Assembly: GCA_964606085.1 (NCBI GenBank)
Contig: CAZSFD010000005.1
Coordinates: 19,812 to 83,811 of the forward strand
Length of the DNA stretch: 64,000 nt
Direction: 5' to 3'
From: an uncultured Anaerolineaceae bacterium
Lineage (GTDB): Bacteria; Chloroflexota; Anaerolineae; Anaerolineales; UBA4823
The notes beneath the pieces are model-generated. The model did no database searches, was not told the DNA's origin, and worked only from the letters and a program-made list of their open reading frames with translations. How positions within the stretch are numbered: the first letter of the stretch is position 1; every line of letters begins with the position of its first letter. A program made the translations under genes and the position numbers. Shown here piece by piece: positions 7,300 through 39,027 of this stretch.

Positions 7300-7301
7300 T
7301 T

Positions 7302-7349: not shown

Positions 7350-7377
7350 GCCCGTGGTTGCTAAAAAAAAGGTGTCT

Positions 7378-11204: not shown

Positions 11205-11212
11205 GAGGCCGT

Positions 11213-17247: not shown

Positions 17248-17257
17248 CAGGGCGCTT

Positions 17258-19541: not shown

Positions 19542-20515
19542 CCACGATCAAAGACGTTGCCAAACACGCCGGGGTCAGCGTCACCACGGCTTCATACGCC
19601 TTGAACGATACCGGCTCGATCAGCGCCGCCACGCGCCAACGCGTGTTCGAAGCCGCCGAAGCGCTCAATTACCACCCCAACGCCTTCGCCCGCAATCTCA
19701 AAAAGCGCAAATCGGGCGTTATTGGCGTTTTCATCAATCGCTTTGGCGGCTCGTTCTACGAGGACATTCTCGAAGGCATCCACGATGCCGTTCTCACCAC
19801 CGATTACGACCTGATCGTCTGCCCCGAAACCGGGGTCATCCCCCGGCTGCTTACCCAGCGCCAGGTGGATGGGGCCATTGTGTTTGCCTCGCGAATTAAG
19901 AATGACACGCTGGTCAAGGTTGCCTCGAAAAAATTCCCCATCGTCGTCCTCGACCGTTTCCTCGAAACAGACTATTTGTTCCCATTGCTGCTCGACAACC
20001 AGCAGGGCGTGAAGGCGGCTTTTCGGCACCTCTATGAGCAAGGCGCACGGCGGATTTTTTATATTTCTGGCGCAGCCGATTCCTTCGATAACTGGGAGCG
20101 CAAACGGGCCTTTCTCGATGAAGCCGCCAAATATAACCTCGCCACCCAGCAATACGACGGCAACTTCACCGAAAAATCGGGCTACGACATTGGCAGCCAG
20201 ATCATCCAGGGCGGCAGCTTGCCCGAAGCGGTGTTTTGCGCCAACGACCAGATGGCTATCGGCTTCCTGCGCGCCATGCAAGAGCGCCAACTGAATGCGC
20301 CGCGCGATATTGCCGTGGTCGGTTTCGATGACATTCAGGTCGCCAGTTTGATGCACCCTTCCCTGTCCACCGTTGGCGCTTCGCGCTACACCTGGGGCTA
20401 TTCTGCGGCCAACCAATTGATGGACTTTCTCGAAAACGGCAACCCCTTCCCGCAACCCTATCGCATCCAGACGCAACTGATCCCGCGTCAATCCTCCACC
20501 CGAGTCGCCCGATGA
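19538..20515 (+). CDS. LacI-family transcriptional regulator
   Basis: TIKDVAKHAGVSVTTASYALN HTH; YHPNAFARNL hinge; CANDQMAIG, VVGFDDI. Confidence 0.95.
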   Translation: MTTIKDVAKHAGVSVTTASYALNDTGSISAATRQRVFEAAEALNYHPNAFARNLKKRKSGVIGVFINRFGGSFYEDILEGIHDAVLTTDYDLIVCPETGVIPRLLTQRQVDGAIVFASRIKNDTLVKVASKKFPIVVLDRFLETDYLFPLLLDNQQGVKAAFRHLYEQGARRIFYISGAADSFDNWERKRAFLDEAAKYNLATQQYDGNFTEKSGYDIGSQIIQGGSLPEAVFCANDQMAIGFLRAMQERQLNAPRDIAVVGFDDIQVASLMHPSLSTVGASRYTWGYSAANQLMDFLENGNPFPQPYRIQTQLIPRQSSTRVAR

Positions 20516-22602
20516 ACACCTTCGCCGTCCGAGACGGCCAATTCTGGCTCAACGACCAACCCCTGCTCCTCCAGTCTGGCGAATTGCACTATTTTCGCAC
20601 CCCGCCAGCGCAATGGCCGCACCGCCTGGGGCTGCTGCAGGCGGCAGGCTTCAACGCCGTAGCCACGTACATCCCCTGGCTGTGGCACCAGCCTGAGCCT
20701 GGCGTTTCCGACTTCGACGGCCACAGCCACCCGTGGCGTAACCTGGCCGGTTTCCTCGATCTCGCCGCCGAGATGGGCCTGTGGATCATCGCCCGGCTTG
20801 GCCCTTACATCATGGCCGAGACCATCAACGAGGGTATTCCGCCGTGGGTGTTTGCCCAGGCCCCACAGGTTGCCATCCTCAACCAGCACGGCCAAACGGA
20901 AAACATCGCCAGCTATTTACACCCCGATTTTTTGACCCCCGTCGCACACTGGTACCAGGCAGTTTTTCAGGTATTAGCCCCCCGGCAGATCACCCGCGGC
21001 GGCAATATCCTCCTGATTCAACTGGATAACGAAATGGGTATGCCCCATTGGGTGCGCAATCTGCTCGACATCAATCCCGATACCCTGGCGCGCTTTGCCG
21101 CCTATTTGCATGAGACGTATGCCGACCGGCTTGCCCGGCGCTACCCCGCCGCCGATCTGCCGGAATTTCTCGGCCAGGCGTTAGCGCATCCCGGCGCACC
21201 CCACGCCCGCAACGTGCTGGAAGATTACCGCCGCTTTTACCGCGCCTATCTCCGTCAATATGCCGCTTTCTTGTGGTCGCAGGCGCAGGCCAACGGCATG
21301 GAAGTTCCGCCCATCGTCAACATCCACGGCTTTGCCAACGGCGGCAAAACCTTCCCCATCGGGTTGTCGCAGTTGGTCTCGGTGATGGAGATGGACGGGA
21401 TGGTCAGCGCCACCGATGTCTACCCCATTTTCATCAACGAGGGCAATTTTCACCAACTGCTGCTGGTCAACGAAGCCACCAAAGCGCTGCAAAACCCGCA
21501 ACAGGCGTTGTTCTCGGTCGAGTTTCAGGCTGGCGGCAACCTCGATTTTGGCAGCGGCCAGACCTCGCTTTACGATCTGCACGCCCGGCTGTGTATTTCG
21601 TGTGGGATGCGCGCCATCAATCATTACCTCTTCTTCGATGGCGAAAACCACCCCCTGCTCAGCCCGGTCAAACGTCACGATTGGGGCCACCCGGTGCGCA
21701 AAGACGGCTCTCTGCGCCCGCATTACCACCGCTACCCCAGGCTCTCGGCGGCGCTTGCCACCTATGGCAGTGCCTTGACCCTGGCCCGCCCGCAAACCGT
21801 CACGACGATTGGCTTTTGGCTCGATCATTTTATGACCGAAGTCAACAACGCCTTCACCCAGGAAGCGACCCACATCATCACCCACCAACGCGAAGTGATC
21901 CTGTTCGACCTGATCGCCCGCGGCCTGGCGCTCACCCACCGCCCCTTCGATGCCGTCGAACTCAGCCGCGCCACGCTGGATGCCGCCACAACGCCGCTCT
22001 GCTGGGCCATGCTCGAAAGGCAGTGCGACCCCGCCACGCAGCAAAAATTGGTAGAGTACGTCCGCCAGGGGGGAAATTTGGTTCTGATTGGGCGGATGTG
22101 CCTGGAAGGCTTCGATCACGCCCCATGCACCCTCTTGTCCGAGGCCCTCGGTGTCGTCCGGCTGGGCGGCGGCGAACCGTTCGTATCACGGCTGATCCGT
22201 GTTTTCGACCATGCTGATGTCCCCGCCTCGTTCGTCGAAACCTACGTGGGCGATTTCGCTGAAGTGATCGCCAGCGACGAAACCGGCGCAACGGTGGGTT
22301 TCATCCAACCTGTCGGCAAAGGAAAGGTGCTGCTCCTCGGCGCGGCGCTGCCGGCCAACACCCTGGCCGACCTCGGCATCGTCCACCAGATGGCCTTGCA
22401 GATGGGCTGCCCGCCGCTCTTTCGGCTCAGTCAATGGGCTGATGTGCGCATCAGCCGCGGCGAAAGGGGCAGTTTCCTGTTCATCAACAACTATCAAGAT
22501 GATGCGGTTGAAACGACGGTGGAATATGATGGCCAAATGCTTTTTGCAGGACAGGCCATCACGCTGCCCGCTCGACAAGGGTTGATCTTGCCTGTGGAAT
22601 GA
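20512..22602 (+). CDS. GH35 clan-A glycosidase/transglycosylase with GH42-like C-terminal domain
   Basis: GELHYFR, GPYIMAE, QLDNE (acid/base, E174), SVEFQAG (nucleophile, E337); no signal peptide. Confidence 0.82.
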   Translation: MNTFAVRDGQFWLNDQPLLLQSGELHYFRTPPAQWPHRLGLLQAAGFNAVATYIPWLWHQPEPGVSDFDGHSHPWRNLAGFLDLAAEMGLWIIARLGPYIMAETINEGIPPWVFAQAPQVAILNQHGQTENIASYLHPDFLTPVAHWYQAVFQVLAPRQITRGGNILLIQLDNEMGMPHWVRNLLDINPDTLARFAAYLHETYADRLARRYPAADLPEFLGQALAHPGAPHARNVLEDYRRFYRAYLRQYAAFLWSQAQANGMEVPPIVNIHGFANGGKTFPIGLSQLVSVMEMDGMVSATDVYPIFINEGNFHQLLLVNEATKALQNPQQALFSVEFQAGGNLDFGSGQTSLYDLHARLCISCGMRAINHYLFFDGENHPLLSPVKRHDWGHPVRKDGSLRPHYHRYPRLSAALATYGSALTLARPQTVTTIGFWLDHFMTEVNNAFTQEATHIITHQREVILFDLIARGLALTHRPFDAVELSRATLDAATTPLCWAMLERQCDPATQQKLVEYVRQGGNLVLIGRMCLEGFDHAPCTLLSEALGVVRLGGGEPFVSRLIRVFDHADVPASFVETYVGDFAEVIASDETGATVGFIQPVGKGKVLLLGAALPANTLADLGIVHQMALQMGCPPLFRLSQWADVRISRGERGSFLFINNYQDDAVETTVEYDGQMLFAGQAITLPARQGLILPVE

Positions 22603-22643: not shown

Positions 22644-23837
22644 TCACAGCCGCCTGAATAAAATGCCTGCGAACAACGCCATCGTTGCGCCGAACACGAA
22701 GGGCGCAGCCGGCCCGAAGCCCAACCAGCCCCACGCCCCCTGCCACAACAGCCCGGCGATCAGCGAAGCTGGCAGGGCCGTCAGGCCGATGGCGGCATTG
22801 TAATAGCCGTAGGCCGTGCCGCGTTGTTCTTGCGGCACCAGGTCGGCGACAAGCGCCTTAGCGGCTCCTTCGGTCAGGGCATAGTAGAAGCCATAGCAGC
22901 CATACAACAGCCAGATTGTCAGGCCATTGGGGGCGGCGGCAAACCCCAGGTAGATCAGCCCATAAAATAACCAGCCGATCCAGATCAATTTGCGCCGCCC
23001 CAACCGGTCTGAAAGCGCCCCGGCTGGCCCGGCGCAGAGGGTGTACACTGCATTGAAGGTCAGCGACATGCCCAGGATTTGCAGCACCGTCAACCCGCGT
23101 TCTTGCCCGCGCAGCAAAATGAACGCATCGGATGAATTTCCCAGCGTGAACACGATCATGGCCAGCAAAAACCACTTGAAGCGCCCATCGAATGACTTCC
23201 AACCCTGGGGTGTAGGGCTGGCGGCGGTTTTGGCGCTGCCTTGCGGCTTGATCTCGCGCACGCCCAGCGCCAACACGATCACAGCCAACATTGCCGGAAT
23301 GATGCTTAGCAGCACGATGACCTGAAAAGTGGCCCGCGTCAGCTCGCCCCCGCCGGCCTGGCTCAGCCAGATGACCAGCGCGGCGATCAGCAGCCCGGTG
23401 AACGCCCCTGCCGTATCTCCGGCGCGGTGCAGCCCGAAGGCCAGCCCGCGCTGTTCGGGCGTGATGCTGTCTGCCAGCAGGGCGTCGCGCGGGGCGGTGC
23501 GGATACCCTTGCCCACCCGGTCGGCAAATCGCACGCCCAGCACCCAGCCCCAGGTGTTGGCGAAATATAAAAACGGCTTGGCCAGCGTAGACAGCCCATA
23601 GCCGAGAACGGTCAGCCATTTGCGCTGCCCCAGGCGGTCGGAAAGCTGCCCAGAGATGATCTTTACCAGGCTGGCGGTCGTCTCAGCCACGCCCTCGATC
23701 AGCCCGACCACGCTGGTGCGCTGTCCCAGCACGTTGACGAGAAACAAGGGCATCAGGTTGGTGAGCATTTCCGATGAGACATCGGTCAGATAGGATGCCA
23801 GGGTGAGCAGCCAGATGTTGCGGGGGATTTTTTTCAT
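22644..23837 (-). CDS. MFS transporter
   Basis: 12-TM pattern; motif A GQLSDRLGQRK and GALSDRLGRRK. Confidence 0.9.
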   Translation of the reverse strand: MKKIPRNIWLLTLASYLTDVSSEMLTNLMPLFLVNVLGQRTSVVGLIEGVAETTASLVKIISGQLSDRLGQRKWLTVLGYGLSTLAKPFLYFANTWGWVLGVRFADRVGKGIRTAPRDALLADSITPEQRGLAFGLHRAGDTAGAFTGLLIAALVIWLSQAGGGELTRATFQVIVLLSIIPAMLAVIVLALGVREIKPQGSAKTAASPTPQGWKSFDGRFKWFLLAMIVFTLGNSSDAFILLRGQERGLTVLQILGMSLTFNAVYTLCAGPAGALSDRLGRRKLIWIGWLFYGLIYLGFAAAPNGLTIWLLYGCYGFYYALTEGAAKALVADLVPQEQRGTAYGYYNAAIGLTALPASLIAGLLWQGAWGWLGFGPAAPFVFGATMALFAGILFRRL

Positions 23838-23848
23838 GGGGGGGCAGG

Positions 23849-25159
23849 TTATGGGGTCAGGAAGCTTTCAATGGGTGGGCATTGGGCGCGCTGCTGAAGC
23901 CCTTTCCAGCGTCGCAGGGCCTCGGCTGCCGGTGCAATGTGGGCCAGCACCGCCTGGCATTCGGAGCGGTCGGGTTGCGCCGCTTGCCAGATCGGCAGGA
24001 GCAGGTTTTCTGGCGCTATTGCCGCTTCCAAGATTCCCGGATTGAGCCGGGCCAGCGCCGCTGCCGCGCCGAAGGCGTAGCGGGCGGGGCGAATCCCTTG
24101 CTGCAAGGCCAGGCGTATCGTGCCAATCAGGCGGTCATCCCAGCCCAGCTTACGCTCTGGGTCGCGCCCCACCCGTTCGACATCATCCAGCAAAAAAGGG
24201 TTGACCATGCGTTCGAGCAGGTCATCGGCATAGGCGGCGTAGCCGGCGGGGGTGAAAAGCGCATCCACGCCAGCGTGTTTGCCCACCAGCGCCGCGCCCG
24301 ATTCCTCGATGAACGCCCGGCGCAGAAATGTGATCATGCCGGGCATTTCCTTCAGATCGGCGATGAATTTGGCCGCGCATAGGCCGCCCACATAGGCGGC
24401 TAAGGCGTGTGTGGCGTTGTGTCCGTAGAGTTTGGCTTCCTCGAAGGGCAGTAGATCGGGTTTCTCGGTGAACAGGGTGATGCCGCGCGTAAATGGCGGG
24501 TCGAAATCAATGGCCGAGATCAAGATACGGTTGAATGCTTCTACCCGAAAGGCACGCGGCAGCCCGGGTGCGATGGCGGCCAGGCGTTGTTCGGCAATCT
24601 GCTCAGGTTCGGTCACGATAGCGCTCATCTTGCCGATCACCGTGTTCAAGAAGCGCACCTGGCTCAGCACAGCCGCCTGTTCCCCAACAGGGATTTCTGC
24701 CATCACTGCCGCTTGCAGGGCTTCGGCGGCGTGATTGTGGTTTTCGGCAGCGTAGATCACTGCCCGCGGCCCGCCCCGCCTGGCCTTCAACTGCAAACCG
24801 GCGGCCAGCAGGCGATGGATACTGCCAGGCTGATCGGATGTGTAGAATTTGATGCTCGGAACCGCCGTGGCAATCTCCTGCGCTGCGGCAAGCGCTTCGA
24901 CCAACCTTTGCCGGTCGGCTGCGTTGGCCGGGTCGGCCATTTCCACCGGGCCGATTTCGGCCTGCTCGATGCGATCGGCTTGCGCGGTGTTCAGCCAATA
25001 GCGCCCCTGGTTGGCGCGCAGCGCCGCCACCACATCAGGGACGACTTCTGCCACGACAAAGCGCGCGAAATTACCGCTTTTGAAGGCCTCGTGCAGGAAC
25101 AGCCCTGCCTGAATAGCCCCAAAACCAAACCCGACGAATGTACGTGAAGATGTGTTCAT
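23849..25159 (-). CDS. Mannitol-1-phosphate 5-dehydrogenase-like polyol-phosphate dehydrogenase
   Basis: N-terminal Rossmann GFGFGAIQAG; AAENHN; EAKLYGHNATH (MtlD Lys/Asn catalytic segment); RVGRDPERKLG. Confidence 0.7.
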   Translation of the reverse strand: MNTSSRTFVGFGFGAIQAGLFLHEAFKSGNFARFVVAEVVPDVVAALRANQGRYWLNTAQADRIEQAEIGPVEMADPANAADRQRLVEALAAAQEIATAVPSIKFYTSDQPGSIHRLLAAGLQLKARRGGPRAVIYAAENHNHAAEALQAAVMAEIPVGEQAAVLSQVRFLNTVIGKMSAIVTEPEQIAEQRLAAIAPGLPRAFRVEAFNRILISAIDFDPPFTRGITLFTEKPDLLPFEEAKLYGHNATHALAAYVGGLCAAKFIADLKEMPGMITFLRRAFIEESGAALVGKHAGVDALFTPAGYAAYADDLLERMVNPFLLDDVERVGRDPERKLGWDDRLIGTIRLALQQGIRPARYAFGAAAALARLNPGILEAAIAPENLLLPIWQAAQPDRSECQAVLAHIAPAAEALRRWKGLQQRAQCPPIESFLTP

Positions 25160-25166
25160 TGGCTGG

Positions 25167-26024
25167 TCATGCCTGACTTGTCACCCGGCGCAGACGTTCG
25201 GCCACATCTTGCCCAAAGCGCTGGATAAATTCCTGCACGAAGGCGGCCACGTCCAAAGCGGGGTCGAGCGCCAGCGGCGTCAAATCCATGGCAAACGACA
25301 GGCCCAGGCTTGTATCCACGCCGTGCGAGGCAAAGTAGGTAGCATTGGCGCGGCGGCGGCCCAGCGAAGCCAGGTCGTAGCGTTTGCCGCCGGCAATCTG
25401 CGAGTCGAACACGCCCAGGAGCGCCGCTTGCAGGTTCTCATGCTGGCTCAAATCCAGACCCACCTTGTCGTCGTCCAGCATCCAATCCAGGTCGCGCCAC
25501 ACCTCGCAGCCATAGAGCTTTTGCGGGCGTTGGTTGGCCGGCAGCGAGCGGATGGCGGCGATCACCTTCAACGCCACGCCGACGTGCGTATCGTGCTTGT
25601 CGGCCAGGTTATGGGTGTAGACGAACTGGGGGCGGGTCGCGTGCAAGATGGCAGCGATGTCATCTACCGGTTGGAGATTTTTGCCATCTTTGACGGCCTT
25701 GCTGGGGTAATCGAGCATGATCTGCGCGGCGTACTCGCCGACAATAGCCGCTTTGCGTTGTTCTTTGAAGCGCACCAGGCGCATTTGCTCGTCGCTGTAA
25801 TTCTTGTAGAGGGCGTCGCGCGGCGAACCGCGCCCATCGGTCACGACAACCCCCGTAAACCACTGAGCCGTCTGCTGGAAACAATCCAGGATCGGCGCGG
25901 CGGCCATGATTTCGATGTCGTCCTGGTGGGCGGCCAGGCACAGGTGCGTTGTCCGTTGCAGCCCGGCGTCAACCGGCAGCCCATCGGGGATAAATACTTC
26001 GGCGGTAGAAAGGTGAAATTGCAT
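25167..26024 (-). CDS. PIG-L/LmbE family deacetylase
   Basis: AHQDDIE and HNLADKHDTH metal motifs; GGAG RBS 6 nt before ATG at 26024. Confidence 0.8.
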   Translation of the reverse strand: MQFHLSTAEVFIPDGLPVDAGLQRTTHLCLAAHQDDIEIMAAAPILDCFQQTAQWFTGVVVTDGRGSPRDALYKNYSDEQMRLVRFKEQRKAAIVGEYAAQIMLDYPSKAVKDGKNLQPVDDIAAILHATRPQFVYTHNLADKHDTHVGVALKVIAAIRSLPANQRPQKLYGCEVWRDLDWMLDDDKVGLDLSQHENLQAALLGVFDSQIAGGKRYDLASLGRRRANATYFASHGVDTSLGLSFAMDLTPLALDPALDVAAFVQEFIQRFGQDVAERLRRVTSQA

Positions 26025-26138
26025 TTCGATCTCCATGGAAACCGCCCGGCGATTGATCGCCGGGCCAGTGAGCAGCGCCAGATTAACCTGGCTTTGTAAC
26101 CTGGGTCTGCCCGATAGCCCCGTTTACGGGGGATTGCT

Positions 26139-27551
26139 TTATCGCCCGACATTCATGCCCGGGCGGGCTTCTGGCAAACTGGCCGCGGCGATGGACTGTC
26201 CCACGCGGCGGCTCTTCTCGTCGGGCAGTTGCACGTGGATGCGGGCGGCCAGTTCAGGAAATTCGGCTTGAAGCACCTGATTGGCGAGTTCGAGGATGAT
26301 CTCGCCGCCGCGGCCCGACGTGCAGCGCCCTAAAATCAGCACATGCTTGATCTCGTAGAAACGGGCATAGTGGGCCAGGGCGTATCCCAGGTAGATGCCC
26401 ATGCTCTGCCAGATTTGCGCCGCGCCTTCATGCCCGGCCTCCAGCTTTTGCTGCACGAACTTGAGCTTCTCGGCATCCGTCACGCCCGCTGGGATTTCGA
26501 TGCCGGCCCGGGGGGCCAGCCGGAACACGCACTGCTGCGAAAAATAGAGCGCCCCGCAGCCGCGGTCGCCCGACCATTCATCCAGCGGCGCATTCGGGTT
26601 GTAATCCACCGGGGCGAAGGCCAGTTCGCTCAACCAGTTGCGGATGTGGCCGTGCATATCCACATACCCGGCCGCCTCGCTCGACCCGAGGGCGATGCCC
26701 AAAATGCCGTTATCTTCCAGCGACATCGCCCCCGCCAGCGCGGTCACATCGCCATCATTGATCACTTCGAGCGGCACGCCCAATTCGTCGCGCAGGCGCA
26801 AAAAGAGGCTTTTGATCTCGCCGAAACGCTCCGCCGGGATGCCGCGAAAGAGCGAGGCCACCATCGGGCGGTTGTCAATGTAGATGCCTGCCGAACTGCC
26901 GCCAATGGCATCTACGCGTGGCATTTTGGAGGCTGCGGTTTGCAGGGCGGCTTTGATTTCGCGGTAGTGATAGGCCGGGTCGCTGTTTTTGCGCGGCTCC
27001 CACACCACTTCTTCGCTGTACACCGGCACGCCATCTACCACCGCGCTCACCTTCCGGTCAGAAGCGCCCAGGTCGAAGCCGATGCGGCAGCCATCCAGGT
27101 GGCGGCCCAGGTTCTTGCCGCTCTCGTTGGCGGGCGGCACATCTTCAGCGGCGCAGGTGACGACGGTGAACGCTTGCTCGTAGACCGTCTGGCCCATGAA
27201 GCCGTGATCGAAGGCCCTTTCGCCGCCCGGCGCGTAGACCTGGCGAATGTATTCGCCGATGGCCGCCGGGCCGCCGACCGTCACCTTCCAGCCGCCGCGC
27301 TGCCAGAGCAAAAATTTCACCAGGCGTTCGACCATTGCGAAGTTTTCCTCGTAACGCGGGTGGCCCTCAGGAAAGACGCGTGTTTGGTAGCGCGAGGTCT
27401 CGCCGCCGTTGCGTTCCAGGCCGATTGCCAGCGGCACGCCATCTTGGGCGGTGGCCTGGTCGAAGGCCTGGTGCACGAGGCCTGCCGGAATAAAATCGGC
27501 ATCGAGTGGGGGAATGAATTGGGGGTGAATGAGATGGGAGTAGTTTTTCAT
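26139..27551 (-). CDS. ROK-family sugar kinase with N-terminal extension
   Basis: GFDLGASDRK, INDGDVTALAG, GIALGSSEAAG; about 150 aa extra N-terminal region. Confidence 0.75.
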   Translation of the reverse strand: MKNYSHLIHPQFIPPLDADFIPAGLVHQAFDQATAQDGVPLAIGLERNGGETSRYQTRVFPEGHPRYEENFAMVERLVKFLLWQRGGWKVTVGGPAAIGEYIRQVYAPGGERAFDHGFMGQTVYEQAFTVVTCAAEDVPPANESGKNLGRHLDGCRIGFDLGASDRKVSAVVDGVPVYSEEVVWEPRKNSDPAYHYREIKAALQTAASKMPRVDAIGGSSAGIYIDNRPMVASLFRGIPAERFGEIKSLFLRLRDELGVPLEVINDGDVTALAGAMSLEDNGILGIALGSSEAAGYVDMHGHIRNWLSELAFAPVDYNPNAPLDEWSGDRGCGALYFSQQCVFRLAPRAGIEIPAGVTDAEKLKFVQQKLEAGHEGAAQIWQSMGIYLGYALAHYARFYEIKHVLILGRCTSGRGGEIILELANQVLQAEFPELAARIHVQLPDEKSRRVGQSIAAASLPEARPGMNVGR

Positions 27552-27574
27552 GGGGTTATGATAGGTGAAAGAGC

Positions 27575-28828
27575 TCAAAGCGAGATTTTACGCGGCTCGC
27601 GCAATTTGAGGATGAACGCGGCCACCGTAACCAGCCCGAACAGGGTCGAAACCAGAAAGGTCAGCGAATAACCCGACCAATCGGCCAGCCAGCCGCCGAT
27701 GACCGGGGCCAGGATGGTGGCAGGGGCGATGAGGGTGTTCGACAGCCCGATATAGGCCTGGCGTTCGGCGGGGCGGCCAAATTCGAGCGTCATCGCCATG
27801 GCGGTTGTCCAGATCGCCACGTTGGCCACGCTGGCCAGGATCATCACCAGGTAAAACCAGCCCACCGCAGGCGAAAGCCAGGCCGTGGCGGCGCTGAGCA
27901 AAGCCGCCACGAAGCCGGCTCCCAGCACACGGTAGTGGCCCCAGCGGTCGCCTGCTCCGCCCATCAGCGGGTTGGCGAGGATGCCCGTGATCATGCCGGT
28001 GCTGGTCAGCACCCCGGCGATGGTTTTGCTGACCTGGTAATTGAGCACGGCGTATAAGATATAAAACGCCGCGCCCATCATGGCAAATTGCGCCAGCATC
28101 CGCACCGCCAGAAACCAGCGGAAGTTGGCGTCGCGGCGCAAAATCTCCCGCATACTGATTTGCACAATCCCTTGCGGCGCGGGCGTTTCTTCTTCTGGCG
28201 GAAATTCATCCGGTTCACGGGTCAACGCCACCATGATGTAAGAAATGACCAGCGCAGCAAAGGCGGTGGTGAAGCACAGGGTAAAGCCGAGGCGCGGGCC
28301 ATAGGTATCCAGCCAATAGCCCGAAATGACGGCACTGACGGCGGCCAGGATATTGAACGCCGCGGCTTGCACGCCAAAAAACGTGCCGCGCAGCCTGGGC
28401 GGCAGCACCTTGACCAACATGCTTTGCCAGGCCACCATGCCAAACCCGCCGCCCAAGCCCTGCCAGACCAACAAAGCCAGCACCAGGGCTGCGGCCGGGT
28501 TGGCATCTATCTGATTCATCATCCACGCCAGCAGGCCGAGAAACAGAAATGGCAGGCGTTCATTGATCGAAATCAGCAGCACCCAGGGTTTGAAGCGTTT
28601 CTGCCGCGCCATGAAGCCCACGGTAAACATGGAGGGCAGTTGCAGCCCGGCAACGTGGATGGCCGGGATCAGGCCGATCAGCGCGGCTGAGGATGTGAAC
28701 TGGTTGAGGAAAAGGGGGATGATCGCGCCGAACGAGGCGAAGCCGATGGCCAGGCCAAAAAAAGCACCGTCAAGCACGTTGACAGTGAAATTAAACCGCA
28801 GGTTGGGGTAATGGGGTAGGTTGCGCAT
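27575..28828 (-). CDS. MFS transporter
   Basis: 12-TM pattern; GGAGDRWGHYR motif A. Confidence 0.85.
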   Translation of the reverse strand: MRNLPHYPNLRFNFTVNVLDGAFFGLAIGFASFGAIIPLFLNQFTSSAALIGLIPAIHVAGLQLPSMFTVGFMARQKRFKPWVLLISINERLPFLFLGLLAWMMNQIDANPAAALVLALLVWQGLGGGFGMVAWQSMLVKVLPPRLRGTFFGVQAAAFNILAAVSAVISGYWLDTYGPRLGFTLCFTTAFAALVISYIMVALTREPDEFPPEEETPAPQGIVQISMREILRRDANFRWFLAVRMLAQFAMMGAAFYILYAVLNYQVSKTIAGVLTSTGMITGILANPLMGGAGDRWGHYRVLGAGFVAALLSAATAWLSPAVGWFYLVMILASVANVAIWTTAMAMTLEFGRPAERQAYIGLSNTLIAPATILAPVIGGWLADWSGYSLTFLVSTLFGLVTVAAFILKLREPRKISL

Positions 28829-28904: not shown

Positions 28905-29279
28905 ATGAAAACGTTTTTACTGATTTCGCTGGGCGCGATGGTGGGCGCCAATTGTCGTTATTGGTTGGGGGCCTGGGCCGTGCAGCAATGGGGTGTGCGG
29001 TTTCCCCTGGGCACCCTGCTGATCAACTTGAGTGGGAGCTTTGTATTGGGCTTCTTGATGGCGGTCTTTTTGGATCGGATGATCGCCGAGCCGCGCTGGC
29101 GGGTTTTGTTGGTGGTGGGATTCTTAGGTTCGTACACCACATTTTCATCATACGCCTATGAAAGCGTTGCGCTCATGCTGAATGGACAGTGGTGGCCGGG
29201 CCTGTTGAATTTGTTTGGCAGCAGTTTTTTGGGTGGGCTGGCCGTGTTATTGGGAATGGGGCTGGGCAAGTTGTTCTGA
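28905..29279 (+). CDS. crcB: Fluoride efflux channel Fluc/CrcB
   Basis: GAMVGANCRY, FPLGTLLINLSG, GFLGSYTTFSS; 124 aa. Confidence 0.95.
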   Translation: MKTFLLISLGAMVGANCRYWLGAWAVQQWGVRFPLGTLLINLSGSFVLGFLMAVFLDRMIAEPRWRVLLVVGFLGSYTTFSSYAYESVALMLNGQWWPGLLNLFGSSFLGGLAVLLGMGLGKLF

Positions 29280-29282
29280 AAG

Positions 29283-30197
29283 CTACTGCCCGAAGACTTC
29301 TTGCAAAACCGGGTTGATCAATTCCCAACGCGGCAGCAGCACCGATGCGCCGCCGGCGGTGGTGAAGGGGGTGATCATCTCGCGGGTGATCGAGCGCCCG
29401 TCTATGCCCTCCGGCCCAACGCGCAGCAGCGCCAGGCCCAGGCGCGGCCAGGCCCAACCGGGGATGTCGCTGTCTAAGGCCTGACCCAATGCGGCGAAGA
29501 AAGCGGGCAGATATGGCCAGGCGGCGGGGTTGAGCAGGCGGCTGATAAAGGCTTTCAAGAAGATGATCGCCCGTTCGTTGCGGAAGAGATCGTCGGAGCC
29601 GGCGCGGTCGCGCACGAAGGCGAGCGCTTGTGTGCCATCCAGGTGATGCGTGCCGGCCTGGTAGCCCGACATGGCGCGCGGCAGGGTAATATCCAGGCCA
29701 TCCACGGCATCTACCAGCCCGCTTAGCCCATCGAAGCGAATGCGCACGTAAAAATGCACGTCCACGCCAAAGTTCTGGCGCACGGTTTCCATCGCCGCGG
29801 CCGGGCCGCTGCCGGCCTGCTCGGCCTCGGCGAAGAAGTGGGCGGTGTTGATGCGGTTCTCGCCAACCTGGGGGATGTTGACCCACAGGTCACGCGGAAT
29901 GGTCAACATGCCCACGTAAGGGCGCAACGGCTGGAAGGTGGTCAGGATCATCGTGTCGGTGCGGCCCAGGACGCCTTCGCCGGGGCGGGCATCTACACCG
30001 AGCAGCAGCACATTCGTCCGGCCTGGCAGGAGCGCTGGCAGCCCGACCAGCAGGCACAGCACGATCAGCGCAATGACCCCGGCGGCCAGGCAGCCCGGTG
30101 GGATGCGGCGCTCTCGGGTGGGTTGAAGATTGTATGCGCGCCGGGGGTGATGCGGTTCTAATTCGATGCGTTGGAAGTTGGAGAGATCGGATGACAT
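29283..30197 (-). CDS. LCP (LytR-CpsA-Psr) family protein
   Basis: LLLGVDAR, RTDTMIL, LTIPRD, RINTA, ALAFVRDR; single TM; start 30197 directly after S41 stop. Confidence 0.88.
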   Translation of the reverse strand: MSSDLSNFQRIELEPHHPRRAYNLQPTRERRIPPGCLAAGVIALIVLCLLVGLPALLPGRTNVLLLGVDARPGEGVLGRTDTMILTTFQPLRPYVGMLTIPRDLWVNIPQVGENRINTAHFFAEAEQAGSGPAAAMETVRQNFGVDVHFYVRIRFDGLSGLVDAVDGLDITLPRAMSGYQAGTHHLDGTQALAFVRDRAGSDDLFRNERAIIFLKAFISRLLNPAAWPYLPAFFAALGQALDSDIPGWAWPRLGLALLRVGPEGIDGRSITREMITPFTTAGGASVLLPRWELINPVLQEVFGQ

Positions 30198-30198
30198 G

Positions 30199-31362
30199 TC
30201 AGGGAAATAAGCTGTGAATGGCGGCCTGGATTGCCGCATCGGGGGTTTGGCCGCTGGCGGCGGGGATGTCGGGCGTGAGGCCCTGGCCAGGGCGAGGCGC
30301 ATCCAGGCCGGGGATGCGCCATTCGGCGCTGGTCACGTGCAGGCTCGATTGGTCGGATAGCTCGTAGACGAGTTGGATGGTGTTTTTGCCGTAGCTGGCC
30401 TCGCCGATCAGTTGGGCGCGGCGGCGCGCTTGCAGCGCACCGGCCACGATCTCGGCGGCGCTGGCGGTGCCGCCATTGATCAGCACCACCAGGGGGATGT
30501 CGGCCAGTTCACCAGCCTGGTTGACTTTGTAGGTTTCTACACCTTGCCCGCGGTATTGCTCTTCAATCACGACGCCATCTGTGAGGAATAATTTGGCGAT
30601 GTCAATGCCCACATCCAACAGGCCGCCGCCGTTGTTGCGCAAATCGAGGGCCAGGGCGGTCGCTCCGCGCGATTGCAGGTGGCGTGCGGCATCGAGGATT
30701 TCGCGCACGGTGGTGGAGGCCATCACGTTGACCTCGATCACGCCCAGCCGGGGTTCGTCGGCGTCGAGGTGGTAGGTGGTGGATGGCAGAGCGACTTCTT
30801 CCCGCGAAATTGTATAAGCAATGGGGGCATAATCGGGGGGTCGCCCGATGGTAATGCGCACGTTCTGGCCGACCGGGCCGCGCACGGCCGCCGTGAGCGT
30901 GTCGAGCGGCGTTTGCGGTGTGATCGGCAGATCGTCTACCGCCAGCAGGCGATCAGCGTCTTGAAGGCCGGCCTTTTTCGCCGGGCCATCAGGAAAGGGG
31001 TACAGCACGTAATGGCCTGCTGAGTCGTTGCCCAGGCGCACCCCAATGCCGCCGAACTTGCCCGAAATGGTGTTGTTTTCCAGTTCGGCCTGTGGGGGTT
31101 CGAGGAAACTGGTGTGCGGGTCGTTGGCGGCGCTGCCATAGGCCTGGATCAGCCCGCGGATTGCGCCGTATTCGAGCGCTGAATCGGCGGGCAGGGGGTA
31201 GTAGGCCTGGTCACGCAACAGTTGGTAGGCTTCGTCAAAAATGGGGAAAGCGGCATATTGGCGTATTTGCCACTCGCGCAGCGCATAGCCACTAAAGAAA
31301 GCGGCCAGAATGATGATGGAAAGGGCAAAGGTGAGCAGGAAGGAGCGTTTGAAGGCGGACAT
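30199..31362 (-). CDS. S41 C-terminal processing peptidase (CtpA-like) with PDZ domain
   Basis: FGGIGVRL, LDLRNNGGG, TASAAEIVAG (Ser), SYGKNTIQ (Lys); N-terminal TM; likely start 31362. Confidence 0.9.
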   Translation of the reverse strand: MSAFKRSFLLTFALSIIILAAFFSGYALREWQIRQYAAFPIFDEAYQLLRDQAYYPLPADSALEYGAIRGLIQAYGSAANDPHTSFLEPPQAELENNTISGKFGGIGVRLGNDSAGHYVLYPFPDGPAKKAGLQDADRLLAVDDLPITPQTPLDTLTAAVRGPVGQNVRITIGRPPDYAPIAYTISREEVALPSTTYHLDADEPRLGVIEVNVMASTTVREILDAARHLQSRGATALALDLRNNGGGLLDVGIDIAKLFLTDGVVIEEQYRGQGVETYKVNQAGELADIPLVVLINGGTASAAEIVAGALQARRRAQLIGEASYGKNTIQLVYELSDQSSLHVTSAEWRIPGLDAPRPGQGLTPDIPAASGQTPDAAIQAAIHSLFP

Positions 31363-31384
31363 GGTGGGGATGGTTGAAGGTTGT

Positions 31385-31909
31385 TCAGGAGGGCAGGTTG
31401 GTGAGCCAGGTTTTGGTTTAGCGGGGAGATTGGAAGCGCAGGACATTCAGGTGGGTGTGTTCGGGCTGCTGTAACAGGATGGGGGTGTCGCGTTTGCGCC
31501 GCCAATAGGTTTTGAACAGCCACAGGATGATCGAATCTTTGCCAAAGGCGGCGGAGAGCGATTCGCGGTTGCCATTGCAGGCCAGTTCGCCGGTGATGAT
31601 GCGGCTGATCGTGCGCTTCATCAGGCGGTAAAACACCAGTGGCAAGGCATAATCGAGCCAGATCAGTGTGTCGGCGCGCGGCCAGAGCAGGTCGCGCACG
31701 ATGCGGTAGTTGCCGCTGATCGCCCAGGCCGGTTGCGCACTGGCCTGATCGGTCTTGGCGCGAAATTCTGCCAGCGGCACGGGCGTCCAGTTGGGGCCCC
31801 AGTGCAGGTCGTCCAGGTCAATGGCAGGGATGCGCAGGCGTTGGGCAAGCTGCCTGGCCAGGGTGGTTTTGCCGGAACCGGTGCAGCCGGTGACGATGAT
31901 GCGTTGCAT
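31385..31909 (-). CDS. Adenylate kinase-like / FlaR (topology modulation) P-loop protein; in-frame TAA at 31418-31420 truncates the C-terminus
   Basis: GCTGSGKTT Walker A, DLDDLHWGPNW, GNY, ADTLIWLD; frame continues after TAA as TKTWLTNLPS to TGA at 31385. Confidence 0.8.
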
Positions 31910-32049: not shown

Positions 32050-32826
32050 ATGCCCACCTTCGACCGCCGCCAGCAATTGATCAATCTCCTGCAAGCCCAG
32101 GCGGGTTTGCGCGTGCCGGAGATTGCTGAAGCGCTGGGTGTTTCGGAAGGCACGGTGCGCAACGATCTGAATGCCCTCGAAGCCGAGGGCGTTTTGGAGC
32201 GCGTGCATGGCGGGGCGCGGCTGCTGCAAGAGCTTTCTGCGTACACGCCAGCTTTTGCTGCCCGCCTGCAAACCCGACGCGAGGCCAAGCAAGCCATCGC
32301 CCAAAAAGCCGCCGAGTTCGTGCAAGATGGCGACTCGCTGCTGCTCGATGCCAGTTCGACCGTCTACGCTCTGTGCGCCCACCTGCGGCAGCGCAAGGGA
32401 TTGACGATCTTTACCAACGGCATCGAAACCGGGCGCGAACTGGTCAAAAACCCGGCCAATACGGTCATTTTGCTGGGCGGTACGCTGCGTTCAGATGGTA
32501 TGACGATCCATGTGCCGCTCGATGGCGAGATGTTGGCGGGGCTGCACTTCAAGACCGCCTTTGTCTCGTGCAGTGGGTTCAGCCTGGAAGCTGGCATGAC
32601 CGAAGTGGACATTCACGAGGCGCAGTTGAAACGCAAGATGATCACGCGGGCGGGCAAGGTCATTGCCCTGATCGATTCGTCCAAATTTGGGCAGGTAGAC
32701 CTGACCACCTTTGCCAACCTGAACCAGATTGACACTTTATTGACGGATAGCGACCTGGATGCCGATTGCCAGGCGCGGCTGCGCGAGGCAGGCATCCACT
32801 TCCTGGTGTGTGGGGCCGCATTGTGA
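32050..32826 (+). CDS. DeoR/GlpR-family regulator
   Basis: VSEGTVRNDLNALE, RVHGGA, LLLDASST, FTNG, LIDSSKFG. Confidence 0.95.
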   Translation: MPTFDRRQQLINLLQAQAGLRVPEIAEALGVSEGTVRNDLNALEAEGVLERVHGGARLLQELSAYTPAFAARLQTRREAKQAIAQKAAEFVQDGDSLLLDASSTVYALCAHLRQRKGLTIFTNGIETGRELVKNPANTVILLGGTLRSDGMTIHVPLDGEMLAGLHFKTAFVSCSGFSLEAGMTEVDIHEAQLKRKMITRAGKVIALIDSSKFGQVDLTTFANLNQIDTLLTDSDLDADCQARLREAGIHFLVCGAAL

Positions 32827-37323: not shown

Positions 37324-39027
37324 ATGACCGACAAACTCACTTCTTACCGTCAAACCCCAACCCCCGCCGATCCAACCAACCAGCTCTGGCCGCTCTACGG
37401 CGCCGGCCTCGAAAACTTCGGCGTAGATGGCAAGCCCATCGCCGCGCCCCTGCCTTCCTTCGGCCCCGACGAACTGCTCATCCGTCACGATGCCTGCGGG
37501 CTGTGTTTTTCGGATGTCAAAGTGGTCAACCAGGGCCAAAACCACCCGCGCATCTTCCGCGACATGAAAACCGAACCCGTGGTGATGGGTCACGAGGTGG
37601 CCATGACCATCCTCGGCGTGGGCGACAACCTCAAAGACCGCTACCACGTCGGCGAGCGCCTGACCCTCGAAACCGACATCGTCATCCGCGGCAACACCTA
37701 CGCCTACGGCTACTGGTTCCAGGGCGGCCTCTCGCAATACAGCGTCATCGGCCCCGATATTTACGCCGCCGATAACGGTAATAACCTGATCAAAGTCCAA
37801 CCCAAGCAGGATGGCACCATGCCCGGCTACGCCGAAGTGGCTCTCACCGAGCCGTGGGCCTGCGTGGTGGCCGCCTATGCCCTGAAATACCGCGACGGCC
37901 TCAAGCCCGGCGGCGCGTTATGGGTGATCGGCGCGGGTGCAACCGACCGCCCTTACACGATTTCCCGCGGCTTCGACGCAGGGGATGGAACATCCCCCGC
38001 GCACCCCGCCAAACTCTACCTCACCAACGTCCCCGCCGGGTTCGCCGAATGGCTCAAACGCCGCTCCGCCGCCCTGGGCATCGAAGTGACCGAAGTCCCC
38101 GACCCCGCCGCGCCGCCCTTCGACTTCGTAGACGACATCGCCCTCCTCGGCGCAGACCCGGCCCTGATCGAACTCGTCAGCCCGCGCCTCGACCAGTTTG
38201 GCGTCCTGGCCATCCTCGCCGATGCTGCCCTGCCGCGCAAGGTCAACGTGGATGTTGGCCGCATCCACTATCACCGCTGGGTCTATGTTGGCACAACAAC
38301 CAACGACCTGGCCGCCGCCTACCAGCCTGCCATCCGTTCCAACCTCAAGCCGGGCGGCAAGGCCTGGTTCATCGGCGCCGGCGGCCCGATGGGGCGCATG
38401 CACGTTCAGCGCGCCATCGAATTCAACGACCCGCCCGGCACCATCGTTTGCACCGATGTTTCGGATATGCGCCTGAGCGAATTATGCGATTCATTCTCCG
38501 CCCAGGCCGAGGCCAAAGGGATTAACTGGTTGTGCTTGAATCCGATGAATAAAGCCGAATACGCCGCCAAGATGGCCGAATTGGGTCAGTTCGATGACAT
38601 TGTGGTACTCGCCCCGGTCGCTGCCATCATCGCCGACGCCGGAAATTACCTTGCCCCCGACGGCGTGATGAACATCTTTGCGGGTGTGGCGCGCGGCACC
38701 ATGGCCGCCCTCGACCTGAGCGGGGCGTATCTGCATGGCACGCGCGTCATCGGCCACTCGGCTTCGCTGATGTCTTATTTCGAGCTTTCGCCCAACCGCT
38801 CGGTGGCCGCAGTCGGCTCGCTCAGCGCCGCCAAAGATGGCCTGCAAGCCGTTAAAGATGCCAGTTTTGCCGGGAAAGTGGTCATCTACCCCAACATTCG
38901 TGAATTTCCGCTCACCCAACTGGCCGACCTCAAAGACAGCCTCCCCACCGTCCACGCCCTGCTCAACGAGCGCGGCGAATGGACGAACGCGGCGGAGGAT
39001 GAGTTTTTGCGGTTGATGCTGGCGTGA
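37324..39027 (+). CDS. Zn-dependent MDR dehydrogenase, L-sorbose-1-phosphate reductase (SorE)-like, with duplicated nucleotide-binding domain
   Basis: CGLCFSD, GHE, EPWACV, GAGGPMG, GKVVIYP, GEWTNAAE; internal repeat LKPGGxxWxIGAG 148 aa apart. Confidence 0.75.
   Translation: MTDKLTSYRQTPTPADPTNQLWPLYGAGLENFGVDGKPIAAPLPSFGPDELLIRHDACGLCFSDVKVVNQGQNHPRIFRDMKTEPVVMGHEVAMTILGVGDNLKDRYHVGERLTLETDIVIRGNTYAYGYWFQGGLSQYSVIGPDIYAADNGNNLIKVQPKQDGTMPGYAEVALTEPWACVVAAYALKYRDGLKPGGALWVIGAGATDRPYTISRGFDAGDGTSPAHPAKLYLTNVPAGFAEWLKRRSAALGIEVTEVPDPAAPPFDFVDDIALLGADPALIELVSPRLDQFGVLAILADAALPRKVNVDVGRIHYHRWVYVGTTTNDLAAAYQPAIRSNLKPGGKAWFIGAGGPMGRMHVQRAIEFNDPPGTIVCTDVSDMRLSELCDSFSAQAEAKGINWLCLNPMNKAEYAAKMAELGQFDDIVVLAPVAAIIADAGNYLAPDGVMNIFAGVARGTMAALDLSGAYLHGTRVIGHSASLMSYFELSPNRSVAAVGSLSAAKDGLQAVKDASFAGKVVIYPNIREFPLTQLADLKDSLPTVHALLNERGEWTNAAEDEFLRLMLA

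What the first reader, a model, noticed from the sequence alone, without database searches (positions are those of the whole stretch)
22644..28828. MFS-ROK kinase-PIG-L deacetylase-MtlD-like dehydrogenase-MFS: unassigned amino-sugar/polyol route
Kinase, N-deacetylase and polyol-phosphate dehydrogenase between two MFS transporters suggest uptake, phosphorylation, deacetylation and redox of an N-acetylated sugar or alditol. No NagA/NagB is present. It lies 3 kb from the DeoR hexitol operon and may be the upper half of the same pathway.
Basis: inference. Interest (0 to 1): 0.6.

Follow-up and report, generated by a model that had tools for sequence, protein, structure and literature searches.

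The report
GlcNAc kinase-deacetylase pair plus unrelated dehydrogenase
The five genes are real, but they are two unrelated modules placed side by side: a widespread, uncharacterised kinase plus deacetylase pair that most likely feeds N-acetylglucosamine into glycolysis in place of the usual NagK and NagA, and a mannitol-dehydrogenase-family gene that elsewhere travels with a different sugar or polyol operon.

Summary
All five co-directional minus-strand genes exist: MFS, ROK-fold kinase, PIG-L deacetylase, MtlD-like dehydrogenase, MFS. They are not a conserved five-gene route.

- **Kinase and PIG-L.** Only this pair is conserved. PIG-L lies directly downstream of the kinase in 56 of 80 loci from at least 10 phyla.
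- **Typical context.** The pair usually sits in an N-acetylglucosamine operon: NagC-like ROK repressor, sugar ABC transporter, GH3 hexosaminidase and SIS-type GlcN-6-P deaminase.
- **NagA swap.** In 14 of the other loci a true NagA occupies the deacetylase slot next to the kinase. The two never occur together. NagA-paired kinases are nested at least four times among PIG-L-paired ones.
- **Fusions.** NagB-kinase fusion proteins exist.
- **Own genome.** It has no NagA and no NagB. It does have the orthologous SIS deaminase beside a GH20 hexosaminidase on another contig.
- **Reading.** The pair most likely converts GlcNAc to GlcN-6-P. Which enzyme acts first is unresolved.
- **MtlD-like gene.** None of its 85 orthologue loci holds the kinase, PIG-L or either MFS. 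It usually follows a Zn-alcohol dehydrogenase and often a DeoR regulator, which resembles the window's 32-43 kb operon.

The scan had already noted this kinase-deacetylase pair on other DNA. I found no paper describing it. It is a new variant of a known pathway.

The parts
27575..28828 (-). MFS transporter (417 aa), first gene of the run. It may import the amino sugar, but it is not a conserved partner of the kinase.
   Evidence: PF07690 E 3e-36. No homologue within 10 kb of the kinase in 80 related loci.
26139..27551 (-). Divergent ROK-fold sugar kinase (470 aa from the ATG at 27551; an upstream TTG lies at 27578). It has an extra N-terminal alpha/beta domain of about 150 aa with no clear structural relative. 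Predicted N-acetylglucosamine kinase.
   Evidence: - No Pfam or NCBIfam hit.
- AF2 pLDDT 94.7.
- Residues 153-465 match ROK kinases at Z 25.
- N-terminal domain: best Z 5.4, Foldseek E 0.058.
- DxGxS, ND and E309 motifs are conserved.
- Genomic context.
25167..26036 (-). PIG-L/LmbE-superfamily zinc deacetylase (289 aa). Predicted to do the deacetylation step of GlcNAc catabolism in place of NagA.
   Evidence: - PF02585, 55 bits.
- AHxDD and HxxH motifs are invariant in 52 orthologues.
- Directly downstream of the kinase in 56 of 80 loci and mutually exclusive with NagA.
- Only remote matches to solved LmbE, BshB and Dac structures.
23849..25159 (-). Long-chain mannitol-dehydrogenase-family oxidoreductase (436 aa). 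It is not an MtlD orthologue. It is evolutionarily independent of the kinase-deacetylase pair and elsewhere pairs with a Zn-ADH and a DeoR regulator.
   Evidence: - PF01232 and PF08125.
- Best M1PDH equivalog 103 bits against a cut-off of 356.
- The K-x4-N-x2-H motif can be read in the translation.
- Context in 85 orthologue loci.
22644..23837 (-). MFS transporter (397 aa), last gene of the run. Substrate unknown.
   Evidence: PF07690 E 2e-50. No homologue in 80 kinase loci or 85 MtlD-like loci.
37324..39027 (+). 567-aa ADH_N (Zn-ADH-like) gene of the DeoR operon. Its 60%-identical homologue lies directly upstream of the MtlD-like orthologue in locus L184, so it is the probable functional partner of the MtlD-like gene.
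   Evidence: Weak IolM-like similarity.
32050..32826 (+). DeoR regulator of the 32-43 kb operon. DeoR homologues (32-37% identity) flank MtlD-like orthologues in 9 of 85 loci, often in the order DeoR, Zn-ADH, MtlD-like.

Best explanation
The run is a lineage-specific juxtaposition of two modules.

**Module A (MFS 27575-28828, kinase, PIG-L)** is the entry into N-acetylglucosamine catabolism.
1. The sugar is taken up. The MFS as importer is inference.
2. The divergent ROK-fold kinase phosphorylates it to GlcNAc-6-P.
3. The PIG-L zinc deacetylase removes the acetyl group, giving GlcN-6-P. It thereby acts as a non-orthologous replacement of NagA.
4. GlcN-6-P is then deaminated to fructose-6-P by an SIS-type deaminase. 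In this genome that gene lies on another contig, beside a GH20 hexosaminidase.

That the pair makes GlcN-6-P from GlcNAc rests on gene context. The order, kinase first, is inferred from the NagA swap; I put it at roughly 60:40 against deacetylase first.

**Module B (MtlD-like dehydrogenase, perhaps with MFS 22644-23837)** is a separate polyol or ketose(-phosphate) oxidoreductase. Elsewhere it belongs with a DeoR-regulated Zn-ADH, aldolase and SDR operon of the kind found at 32-43 kb in this window.
For: **The pair is the conserved unit**
- PIG-L lies directly downstream of the kinase in 56 of 80 loci from Chloroflexota, Hydrogenedentota, Nitrospirota, Acidobacteriota, Armatimonadota, Bacillota, Verrucomicrobiota and others.
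- The two genes are adjacent in about 14 genomes of a 121-genome sample of the class.

**Recurrent neighbours point to GlcNAc**
- NagC-like ROK repressor, in 28 loci.
- CUT1 ABC transporter.
- GH3 NagZ-like hexosaminidase.
- SIS protein most like the GlmS isomerase domain and NagB-II.

**NagA and PIG-L are interchangeable**
- In 14 of 80 loci a NagA that passes the TIGR00221 equivalog cut-off (317 bits against 226) sits next to the kinase. NagA and PIG-L never occur in the same locus.
- The operons kinase-NagA-SIS (G007, G040) and kinase-PIG-L-SIS (G065) have the same layout.
- On the kinase tree, NagA-paired kinases are nested among PIG-L-paired ones. Well-supported branches force at least 4 switches.
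- 130 kinase positions, including all motif residues, are at least 90% conserved in both groups. No position switches consistently between them.

**Fusions**
- Proteins P0124 and P0155 carry an N-terminal domain that passes the nagB equivalog (299 bits against 237), fused to this kinase family.

**Own genome (99% complete)**
- No NagA: best 24.6 bits.
- No PF01182 NagB.
- It has an SIS protein 54% identical to the operon deaminase of G065, next to a GH20 gene.

**The enzymes look competent**
- ROK fold at Z 25, with DxGxS and ND motifs.
- PIG-L zinc and catalytic motifs are invariant.

**Module B is separate**
- None of 85 MtlD-like loci holds the kinase, PIG-L or either MFS.
- A Zn-ADH lies directly upstream in 52 of 85 loci. 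DeoR, aldolase-SDR fusion and PHP-like genes recur.
Against: - No enzyme of either family has been assayed, so substrates are inferred from context only.
- Seven of the 21 class genomes with the PIG-L orthologue also carry a NagA over cut-off elsewhere, against 60 of the other 100. Displacement is therefore not strict, and PIG-L could have a substrate of its own.
- The archaeal precedent (Thermococcus Dac) deacetylates unphosphorylated chitobiose and GlcNAc.
- The nearest relative's operon also carries a BadF/BadG-type sugar kinase, which leaves room for a division of labour between two kinases.
- In this genome the 7-nt and 11-nt gaps suggest the MtlD-like gene is co-transcribed with the pair, so a local functional link cannot be excluded.
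- The NagC-like repressor and ABC transporter of the canonical operon are missing here.
Confidence: 0.5

Rival explanations
1. Archaeal-type, deacetylate-first route. The PIG-L enzyme deacetylates free GlcNAc or chitobiose to glucosamine, as Thermococcus Dac does. The ROK-fold kinase is then a glucosamine kinase that makes GlcN-6-P for the SIS deaminase.
For: - PIG-L/CE14 enzymes with known sugar substrates act on unphosphorylated GlcNAc compounds (established knowledge; PMC12343721, read, predicts this for haloarchaea).
- The partner deaminase is SIS-type, like archaeal GlmD.
- Seven of 21 PIG-L genomes also keep a NagA, which fits PIG-L having a distinct substrate.
- ROK hexokinases are often broad in specificity (established knowledge).
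Against: - True NagA, which needs GlcNAc-6-P, replaces PIG-L slot for slot next to kinases 68-69% identical to this one.
- Those kinases show no consistent residue change and are nested among PIG-L-paired ones.
- By sequence the PIG-L is no closer to Dac (E 0.01) than to BshB-like proteins.
- No orthologue of the GlmA exo-glucosaminidase is part of the conserved loci. They carry GH3 instead.
Confidence: 0.27
2. All five genes form one route in this organism: uptake, phosphorylation, deacetylation and NAD-dependent redox of an N-acetylated sugar or alditol, feeding the DeoR operon 3 kb away.
For: - The genes are tightly packed and co-directional, with gaps of 7-102 nt.
- MtlD-family enzymes interconvert ketose phosphates and polyol phosphates, and fructose-6-P is the end product of the GlcNAc route (established knowledge).
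- The MtlD-like family does have recurrent links to DeoR-operon-type genes.
Against: - No co-occurrence of MtlD-like or MFS homologues with the pair in 80 + 85 loci or in the 121-genome class sample.
- The closest relatives of both the kinase (89%) and the MtlD-like protein (80%), both from one metagenome sample, lie on different contigs in different contexts.
- Unrelated housekeeping genes (CrcB, an LCP-family glycopolymer transferase, S41 protease) separate the run from the DeoR operon.
Confidence: 0.08
3. The pair handles another N-acetyl sugar (GalNAc, ManNAc or MurNAc), or serves recycling or biosynthesis (for example a BshB/MshB-like thiol pathway) rather than GlcNAc catabolism.
For: - The weak NCBIfam hits of the PIG-L protein are to BshB1 and BshB2 (E 2e-6).
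- One distant kinase (P0127) lies between an SIS gene and a PfkB gene, a layout like the tagatose-6-P type GalNAc pathways.
- The closest structural matches include ManNAc kinases.
Against: - The partners are GlcNAc-type: a nagA and a nagB equivalog over cut-off, a NagB-II/GlmS-like SIS, a NagZ-like GH3 and a NagC-like repressor.
- The clustering found no recurrent glycosyltransferase or Cys-ligase-like neighbour, which a thiol pathway would need. Only the 10 commonest neighbour clusters were annotated.
- The BshB scores are far below cut-off (28 bits against 183).
Confidence: 0.1

Closest known systems
Bacterial NagK (ROK N-acetylglucosamine kinase) and NagA (amidohydrolase GlcNAc-6-P deacetylase) of the nag pathway
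   Same: - The genes sit in the same operon positions, next to a NagC-like repressor, a hexosaminidase, a sugar ABC transporter and a GlcN-6-P deaminase.
- True NagA and this PIG-L swap within the same slot.
- The kinase core has the ROK fold (Z 22-25 to NagK, NanK and ROK glucokinases).
   Different: - The kinase fails the ROK sequence models.
- It lacks the Cys-rich zinc motif.
- It reads E-L-A-F where ROK kinases have ExGH.
- It carries an extra 150-aa N-terminal domain with no structural match.
- The deacetylase has an unrelated fold (LmbE/PIG-L, not the amidohydrolase TIM barrel).
Thermococcus/Pyrococcus chitin pathway: Dac (PIG-L/CE14 diacetylchitobiose deacetylase), GlmA, glucosamine kinase, GlmD (SIS deaminase)
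   Same: A PIG-L-family deacetylase and an SIS-type deaminase stand in for NagA and NagB.
   Different: - By sequence the match to Dac is only remote: profile E 0.01, no better than to BshB-like proteins.
- The kinase is ROK-fold, not ADP-dependent.
- The conserved loci use GH3, not a GlmA orthologue.
- The window's GH35 gene matches the GlmA model only over its N-terminal 170 residues (170 bits against a cut-off of 1500) and belongs to the convergent plus-strand operon.
- The NagA swap argues that the substrate is phosphorylated.
Mannitol-1-phosphate 5-dehydrogenase MtlD and the long-chain mannitol dehydrogenase family (UxaB, UxuB, DalD)
   Same: Both Pfam domains are present, as is the K-x4-N-x2-H catalytic motif. 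The best solved relative is Shigella M1PDH, 3h2z, E 2e-18.
   Different: - It scores far below every M1PDH equivalog cut-off (103 bits against 356).
- It has no PTS mannitol genes beside it.
- Its conserved partner is a Zn-ADH with weak IolM-like similarity, plus DeoR, aldolase-SDR fusion, PHP-like and inositol-1-P-synthase-family genes.

Membership tests
ROK family (PF00480) sugar kinases | Match to the family sequence model over cut-off | tested here: not met
   PF00480 E 0.083, 12.8 bits against a cut-off of 22.9. There is no NCBIfam hit. Distant members of the same family (P0239, P0260) do pass at 25 and 32 bits, so the link is transitive.
ROK family (PF00480) sugar kinases | ASKHA/ROK two-lobe fold | tested here: met
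   AF2 model with pLDDT 94.7. Residues 153-465 align to NanK, ROK glucokinase and NagK at Z 21-25 over 280-293 residues. Foldseek E 1e-16 to 1e-20.
ROK family (PF00480) sugar kinases | ExGH motif and Cys-rich zinc site (CxCGxxGC) | tested here: not met
   The aligned segment reads E309-L-A-F. Only one Cys lies in the SGDxGCG segment, and it is not among the positions at least 90% conserved.
ROK family (PF00480) sugar kinases | Phosphate-1 DxGxT/S motif and catalytic Asp of the ND motif | tested here: met
   D160, G162, S164 and N265-D266-G267 are at least 90% conserved in 71 orthologues with either partner.
N-acetylglucosamine kinase (function, EC 2.7.1.59) | ATP-dependent phosphorylation of GlcNAc at C6 | not testable with these tools
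   Inferred only, from adjacency to true NagA, NagB fusions and nag-type neighbours.
PIG-L / LmbE superfamily (PF02585, CAZy CE14) | Match to the family model over cut-off | tested here: met
   55.1 bits against a cut-off of 28.2.
PIG-L / LmbE superfamily (PF02585, CAZy CE14) | AHxDD and HxxH zinc and catalytic motifs | tested here: met
   A36, H37, D39, D40 and H148, T150, H151 are invariant in 29-52 orthologues.
Diacetylchitobiose deacetylase (Dac) subfamily | Close sequence relationship to solved Dac enzymes | tested here: inconclusive
   The profile against PDB gives Dac (8bgn) E 0.01 over the N-terminal half only. This is weaker than the BshB-like 2ixd at E 1e-4. The relationship is remote and does not decide the subfamily.
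NagA (TIGR00221, amidohydrolase GlcNAc-6-P deacetylase) | Amidohydrolase fold and match to the model | tested here: not met
   The PIG-L protein has no amidohydrolase match. The whole genome has no nagA match above 24.6 bits. PIG-L may work like NagA but is not a member of its family.
Mannitol-1-phosphate 5-dehydrogenase (MtlD equivalogs) | Score over an equivalog cut-off | tested here: not met
   Best is NF002652 at 103 bits against a cut-off of 356.
Long-chain mannitol dehydrogenase family (PF01232 + PF08125) | Both domains and the K-x4-N-x2-H motif | tested here: met
   37 and 68 bits, both over cut-off. The motif KLYGHNATH can be read in the translation.

The most novel reading that the evidence does not exclude
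The PIG-L protein would be the first LmbE-superfamily enzyme shown to deacetylate a sugar phosphate (GlcNAc-6-P), making it a true analogue of NagA. Its partner would be a new GlcNAc kinase family: a zinc-less ROK fold plus an N-terminal domain with no known structural relative. Together they would be the unannotated GlcNAc entry route of Anaerolineae and at least nine other phyla.
Probability: 0.45. Interest if true: 0.55.

Novelty: new variant of a known kind. Interest (0 to 1): 0.42.

Why it matters
Filamentous Chloroflexi are repeatedly reported to take up N-acetylglucosamine from lysed cells, yet nagA and nagB are annotated in few of their genomes (PMC9942424).

A widespread kinase-deacetylase pair could close that annotation gap. 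It spans more than 8000 clusters at 90% identity and at least 10 phyla. Current annotation calls it only 'ROK family protein' plus 'PIG-L family deacetylase'.

If confirmed, it would add a clean case of non-orthologous displacement of NagA. It would also correct metabolic reconstructions of Anaerolineae, Acidobacteriota, Armatimonadota, Hydrogenedentota and Clostridia genomes.

The finding is also a caution: a tight co-directional gene run can be a recent mosaic rather than one pathway.

Tried and rejected
**Searches that found nothing useful**
- Single-sequence searches against solved structures for the kinase and for PIG-L gave no useful hits.
- The kinase N-terminal domain was folded alone (pLDDT 94.6). 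The best match by VIA-align 2 (the in-house structural aligner) was Z 5.4, to a designed protein. The best Foldseek match was E 0.058. No fold was assigned.
- The promoter and terminator scan of 22.3-29.4 kb found no promoter-like sites, and terminator-like sites at the chance level.
- Seven literature searches found no paper that characterises this kinase family or a PIG-L enzyme of the bacterial nag pathway.

**Ideas dropped**
- I first took the adjacent GH35/GlmA-like gene (20512-22602) as support for a chitosan-type route. I dropped this because it is convergent, belongs to the plus-strand GH94/ABC/LacI operon, matches the GlmA model only over its N-terminal 170 residues, and has no homologue in 80 kinase loci.
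- Strict genome-wide anticorrelation of the pair with NagA does not hold: 7 of 21 genomes against 60 of 100. Only the within-locus exclusion is strict.

**Not attempted**
- The PIG-L protein was not folded, because the tools return no coordinates from which to judge a phosphate site.


Full report
**Observation**

Five co-directional minus-strand ORFs fill 22644-28828.
- Two are MFS transporters: 27575-28828 and 22644-23837.
- One is a PIG-L deacetylase, 25167-26036.
- One carries both mannitol-dehydrogenase domains, 23849-25159.

That frame has no Pfam or NCBIfam match at all. ROK reaches only E 0.083, below its cut-off. Its database form starts at the ATG at 27551 and is 470 aa. Gaps between the genes are 23, 102, 7 and 11 nt.

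**What the kinase-like protein is**

- An AlphaFold model built on 38 homologues is confident: pLDDT 94.7, pTM 0.93.
- Residues 153-465 superpose on ROK kinases (NanK, ROK glucokinase, NagK, ROK hexokinase). Z is 21-25 over 280-293 residues at 12-22% identity.
- The phosphate-1 motif (D160, G162, S164) and the ND catalytic motif (N265, D266) are conserved.
- The ROK zinc site is gone. ExGH reads E-L-A-F, and there is no Cys-rich motif.
- Residues 1-152 form a confident alpha/beta domain (pLDDT 94.6 when folded alone).
- That domain has no convincing match among solved structures: best Z 5.4, Foldseek E 0.058.
- The family is large: more than 8000 clusters at 90% identity, and 437 clusters at 50% identity with E below 1e-30.

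**What is conserved around it**

A scan of one genome per species returned 80 loci. They come from Chloroflexota, Hydrogenedentota, Nitrospirota, Acidobacteriota, Armatimonadota, Bacillota, Verrucomicrobiota, Bacteroidota, Atribacterota and Aminicenantota. Their kinases are 56-74% identical to the window's.

- tblastn of the window's proteins against these loci found the PIG-L orthologue directly downstream of the kinase in 56 of 80.
- It found no homologue of the MtlD-like gene, of either MFS or of the GH35 gene in any of them.
- In a 121-genome sample of the class, the kinase is present in 18 genomes and the PIG-L orthologue in 21. They are adjacent in about 14.
- In that sample the only close MtlD-like orthologue (59% identity, genome G021) lies on a different contig from that genome's PIG-L gene.
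- The nearest kinase relative (89% identity) sits in ROK repressor-kinase-PIG-L-binding protein-two permeases.

The conserved unit is therefore the kinase-PIG-L pair, not the five genes.

**What the pair does**

I clustered all neighbouring ORFs and annotated the commonest clusters. The recurrent neighbours were:
- a NagC-like ROK repressor directly upstream, in 28 loci;
- a CUT1-type ABC transporter;
- a GH3 enzyme most like NagZ;
- an SIS protein most like the GlmS isomerase domain and NagB-II.

A typical operon reads repressor, kinase, PIG-L, binding protein, permeases, GH3, SIS (L039, L040, L044, L029, L045, L051).

Two 700-aa proteins, P0124 and P0155, carry an N-terminal domain that passes the nagB equivalog cut-off, fused to this kinase.

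The most telling result concerns NagA.
- In 14 of the 24 loci without PIG-L, a protein passing the nagA equivalog cut-off (317 bits against 226) lies next to the kinase.
- No locus holds both NagA and PIG-L.
- The operons kinase-NagA-SIS in G007 and G040 and kinase-PIG-L-SIS in G065 have the same layout.
- On a kinase tree the NagA-paired sequences are nested among PIG-L-paired ones. Well-supported branches force at least four switches (quick IQ-TREE search, midpoint root, all 81 rows kept).
- 130 kinase positions are at least 90% conserved in both groups. The only five group-biased positions are explained by one Clostridia clade.

This is the pattern of non-orthologous displacement. PIG-L fills the deacetylase step of a GlcNAc to fructose-6-P route.

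NagA needs GlcNAc-6-P, and the kinases look isofunctional. The kinase is therefore most simply a GlcNAc kinase, and PIG-L a GlcNAc-6-P deacetylase.

The alternative is the archaeal order: deacetylate free GlcNAc or chitobiose, then phosphorylate GlcN. It is not excluded.
- Seven of 21 PIG-L genomes in the class sample also carry a NagA elsewhere, against 60 of the other 100.
- All characterised sugar-active PIG-L enzymes I know of use unphosphorylated substrates.

**The own genome**

- It is 99% complete. It has no NagA (best 24.6 bits) and no PF01182 NagB.
- On contig C77 it encodes an SIS protein 54% identical to the deaminase of the G065 kinase-PIG-L-SIS operon. A GH20 hexosaminidase lies immediately beside it.
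- The pathway is thus complete in this genome only if the window's pair supplies the kinase and deacetylase steps.
- The PIG-L protein keeps the AHxDD and HxxH motifs, invariant in 52 orthologues.
- It is only remotely related to any solved member: BshB-like 2ixd E 1e-4, Dac E 0.01.

**The MtlD-like gene**

It belongs to the long-chain mannitol dehydrogenase family. Both domains are present, the K-x4-N-x2-H motif is present, and the best solved relative is M1PDH 3h2z at E 2e-18. It scores far below every MtlD equivalog cut-off.

It has its own abundant Chloroflexi and soil orthologue group. In 85 orthologue loci (57-80% identity):
- none holds the kinase, PIG-L or either MFS;
- a Zn-dependent alcohol dehydrogenase lies directly upstream in 52 loci;
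- a DeoR regulator, an aldolase-II/SDR fusion, a PHP-like protein, an inositol-1-phosphate-synthase-family protein, a 2-oxoacid dehydrogenase complex and an FGGY kinase recur.

Close homologues of genes in the window's 32-43 kb operon lie beside MtlD-like orthologues:
- the 567-aa ADH at 37324-39027 is 60% identical to the gene directly upstream in L184;
- the PHP protein is 51% identical to one in L097;
- the ARMT1-like protein is 52% identical to one in L164;
- DeoR homologues at 32-37% identity occur in nine loci.

In this genome that gene has come to lie behind the GlcNAc pair, probably co-transcribed with it.

Whether this juxtaposition has any functional meaning cannot be told from sequence. 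One possibility would be fructose-6-P to mannitol-1-P.

**Comparison, novelty and verdict**

The pathway (GlcNAc to fructose-6-P) is textbook. What is new is the pair of enzymes filling its first two steps:
- a zinc-less ROK-fold kinase with an unassigned N-terminal domain;
- an LmbE-superfamily deacetylase interchangeable with NagA.

No paper in the searchable library describes them. The library is incomplete, so this is not proof.

Earlier notes of this scan had already flagged the same pair on other genomes, mostly reading it as deacetylate-first. My NagA-swap analysis leans the other way.

I rate this a new variant of a known kind and of moderate interest. The five-gene 'unassigned amino-sugar/polyol route' as stated is not supported.

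Noticed in passing
window 3186-22602 (+ strand): A long plus-strand sugar utilisation operon. It holds:
- a GH94 phosphorylase (3186-5672);
- two solute-binding proteins, one of them a 986-aa protein with the binding domain only in its C-terminal half (7300-10260);
- four ABC permeases;
- an NHL/Yip1 membrane protein;
- DUF5696 (14120-16360);
- a PF10091 'glycoamylase' (18159-19541);
- LacI;
- a GH35/GlmA-like enzyme.

None has an NCBIfam equivalog. From memory, GH94 together with PF10091 suggests a beta-glucan oligosaccharide such as beta-1,2-glucan.
   Followed up: partly
own genome contig C77 (locus L105) 10848-16688: Next to the GH20 and SIS deaminase genes lies a second cluster: an unknown 489-aa protein with no family hit, Amidohydro_2, an AgaS-like SIS, PfkB and GatZ/KbaZ. 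It looks like a GalNAc or tagatose-6-P type pathway whose first two enzymes are of unassigned families.
   Followed up: no
loci L113, L125, L130, L132, L141, L153, L169, L186 (metagenome contigs): A conserved six-gene cluster: Zn-ADH, aldolase-II/SDR fusion, PHP-like protein with no Pfam hit, myo-inositol-1-phosphate-synthase-family protein, Zn-ADH, MtlD-like dehydrogenase. The pathway is unassigned. The Zn-ADH has weak similarity to scyllo-inosose 3-dehydrogenase IolM.
   Followed up: partly
proteins P0124, P0155, P0211, P0272: Fused forms of the kinase family: NagB-kinase (about 700 aa, two separate 50% clusters), a Tudor/chromo-like N-terminal fusion (P0211, 659 aa), and a kinase with C-terminal methyltransferase and protein-kinase-like regions (P0272, 883 aa).
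   Followed up: partly
locus L187 16343-17335: In the nearest relative's operon (kinase 89% identical), a DUF5107 protein and a BadF/BadG/BcrA/BcrD-type sugar kinase follow the ABC transporter. That makes a second candidate amino-sugar kinase in the same operon.
   Followed up: no
The operon also holds a glycerol-1-phosphate-dehydrogenase-like Fe-ADH, two class II aldolases, an IolO/psicose-epimerase-like TIM barrel and an ARMT1-like phosphatase.
   Followed up: partly
window 28905-31446: A CrcB fluoride channel, an LCP-family glycopolymer transferase and an S41 C-terminal processing protease lie between the five-gene run and the DeoR operon. They are unrelated housekeeping genes that break any operon continuity.
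   Followed up: yes
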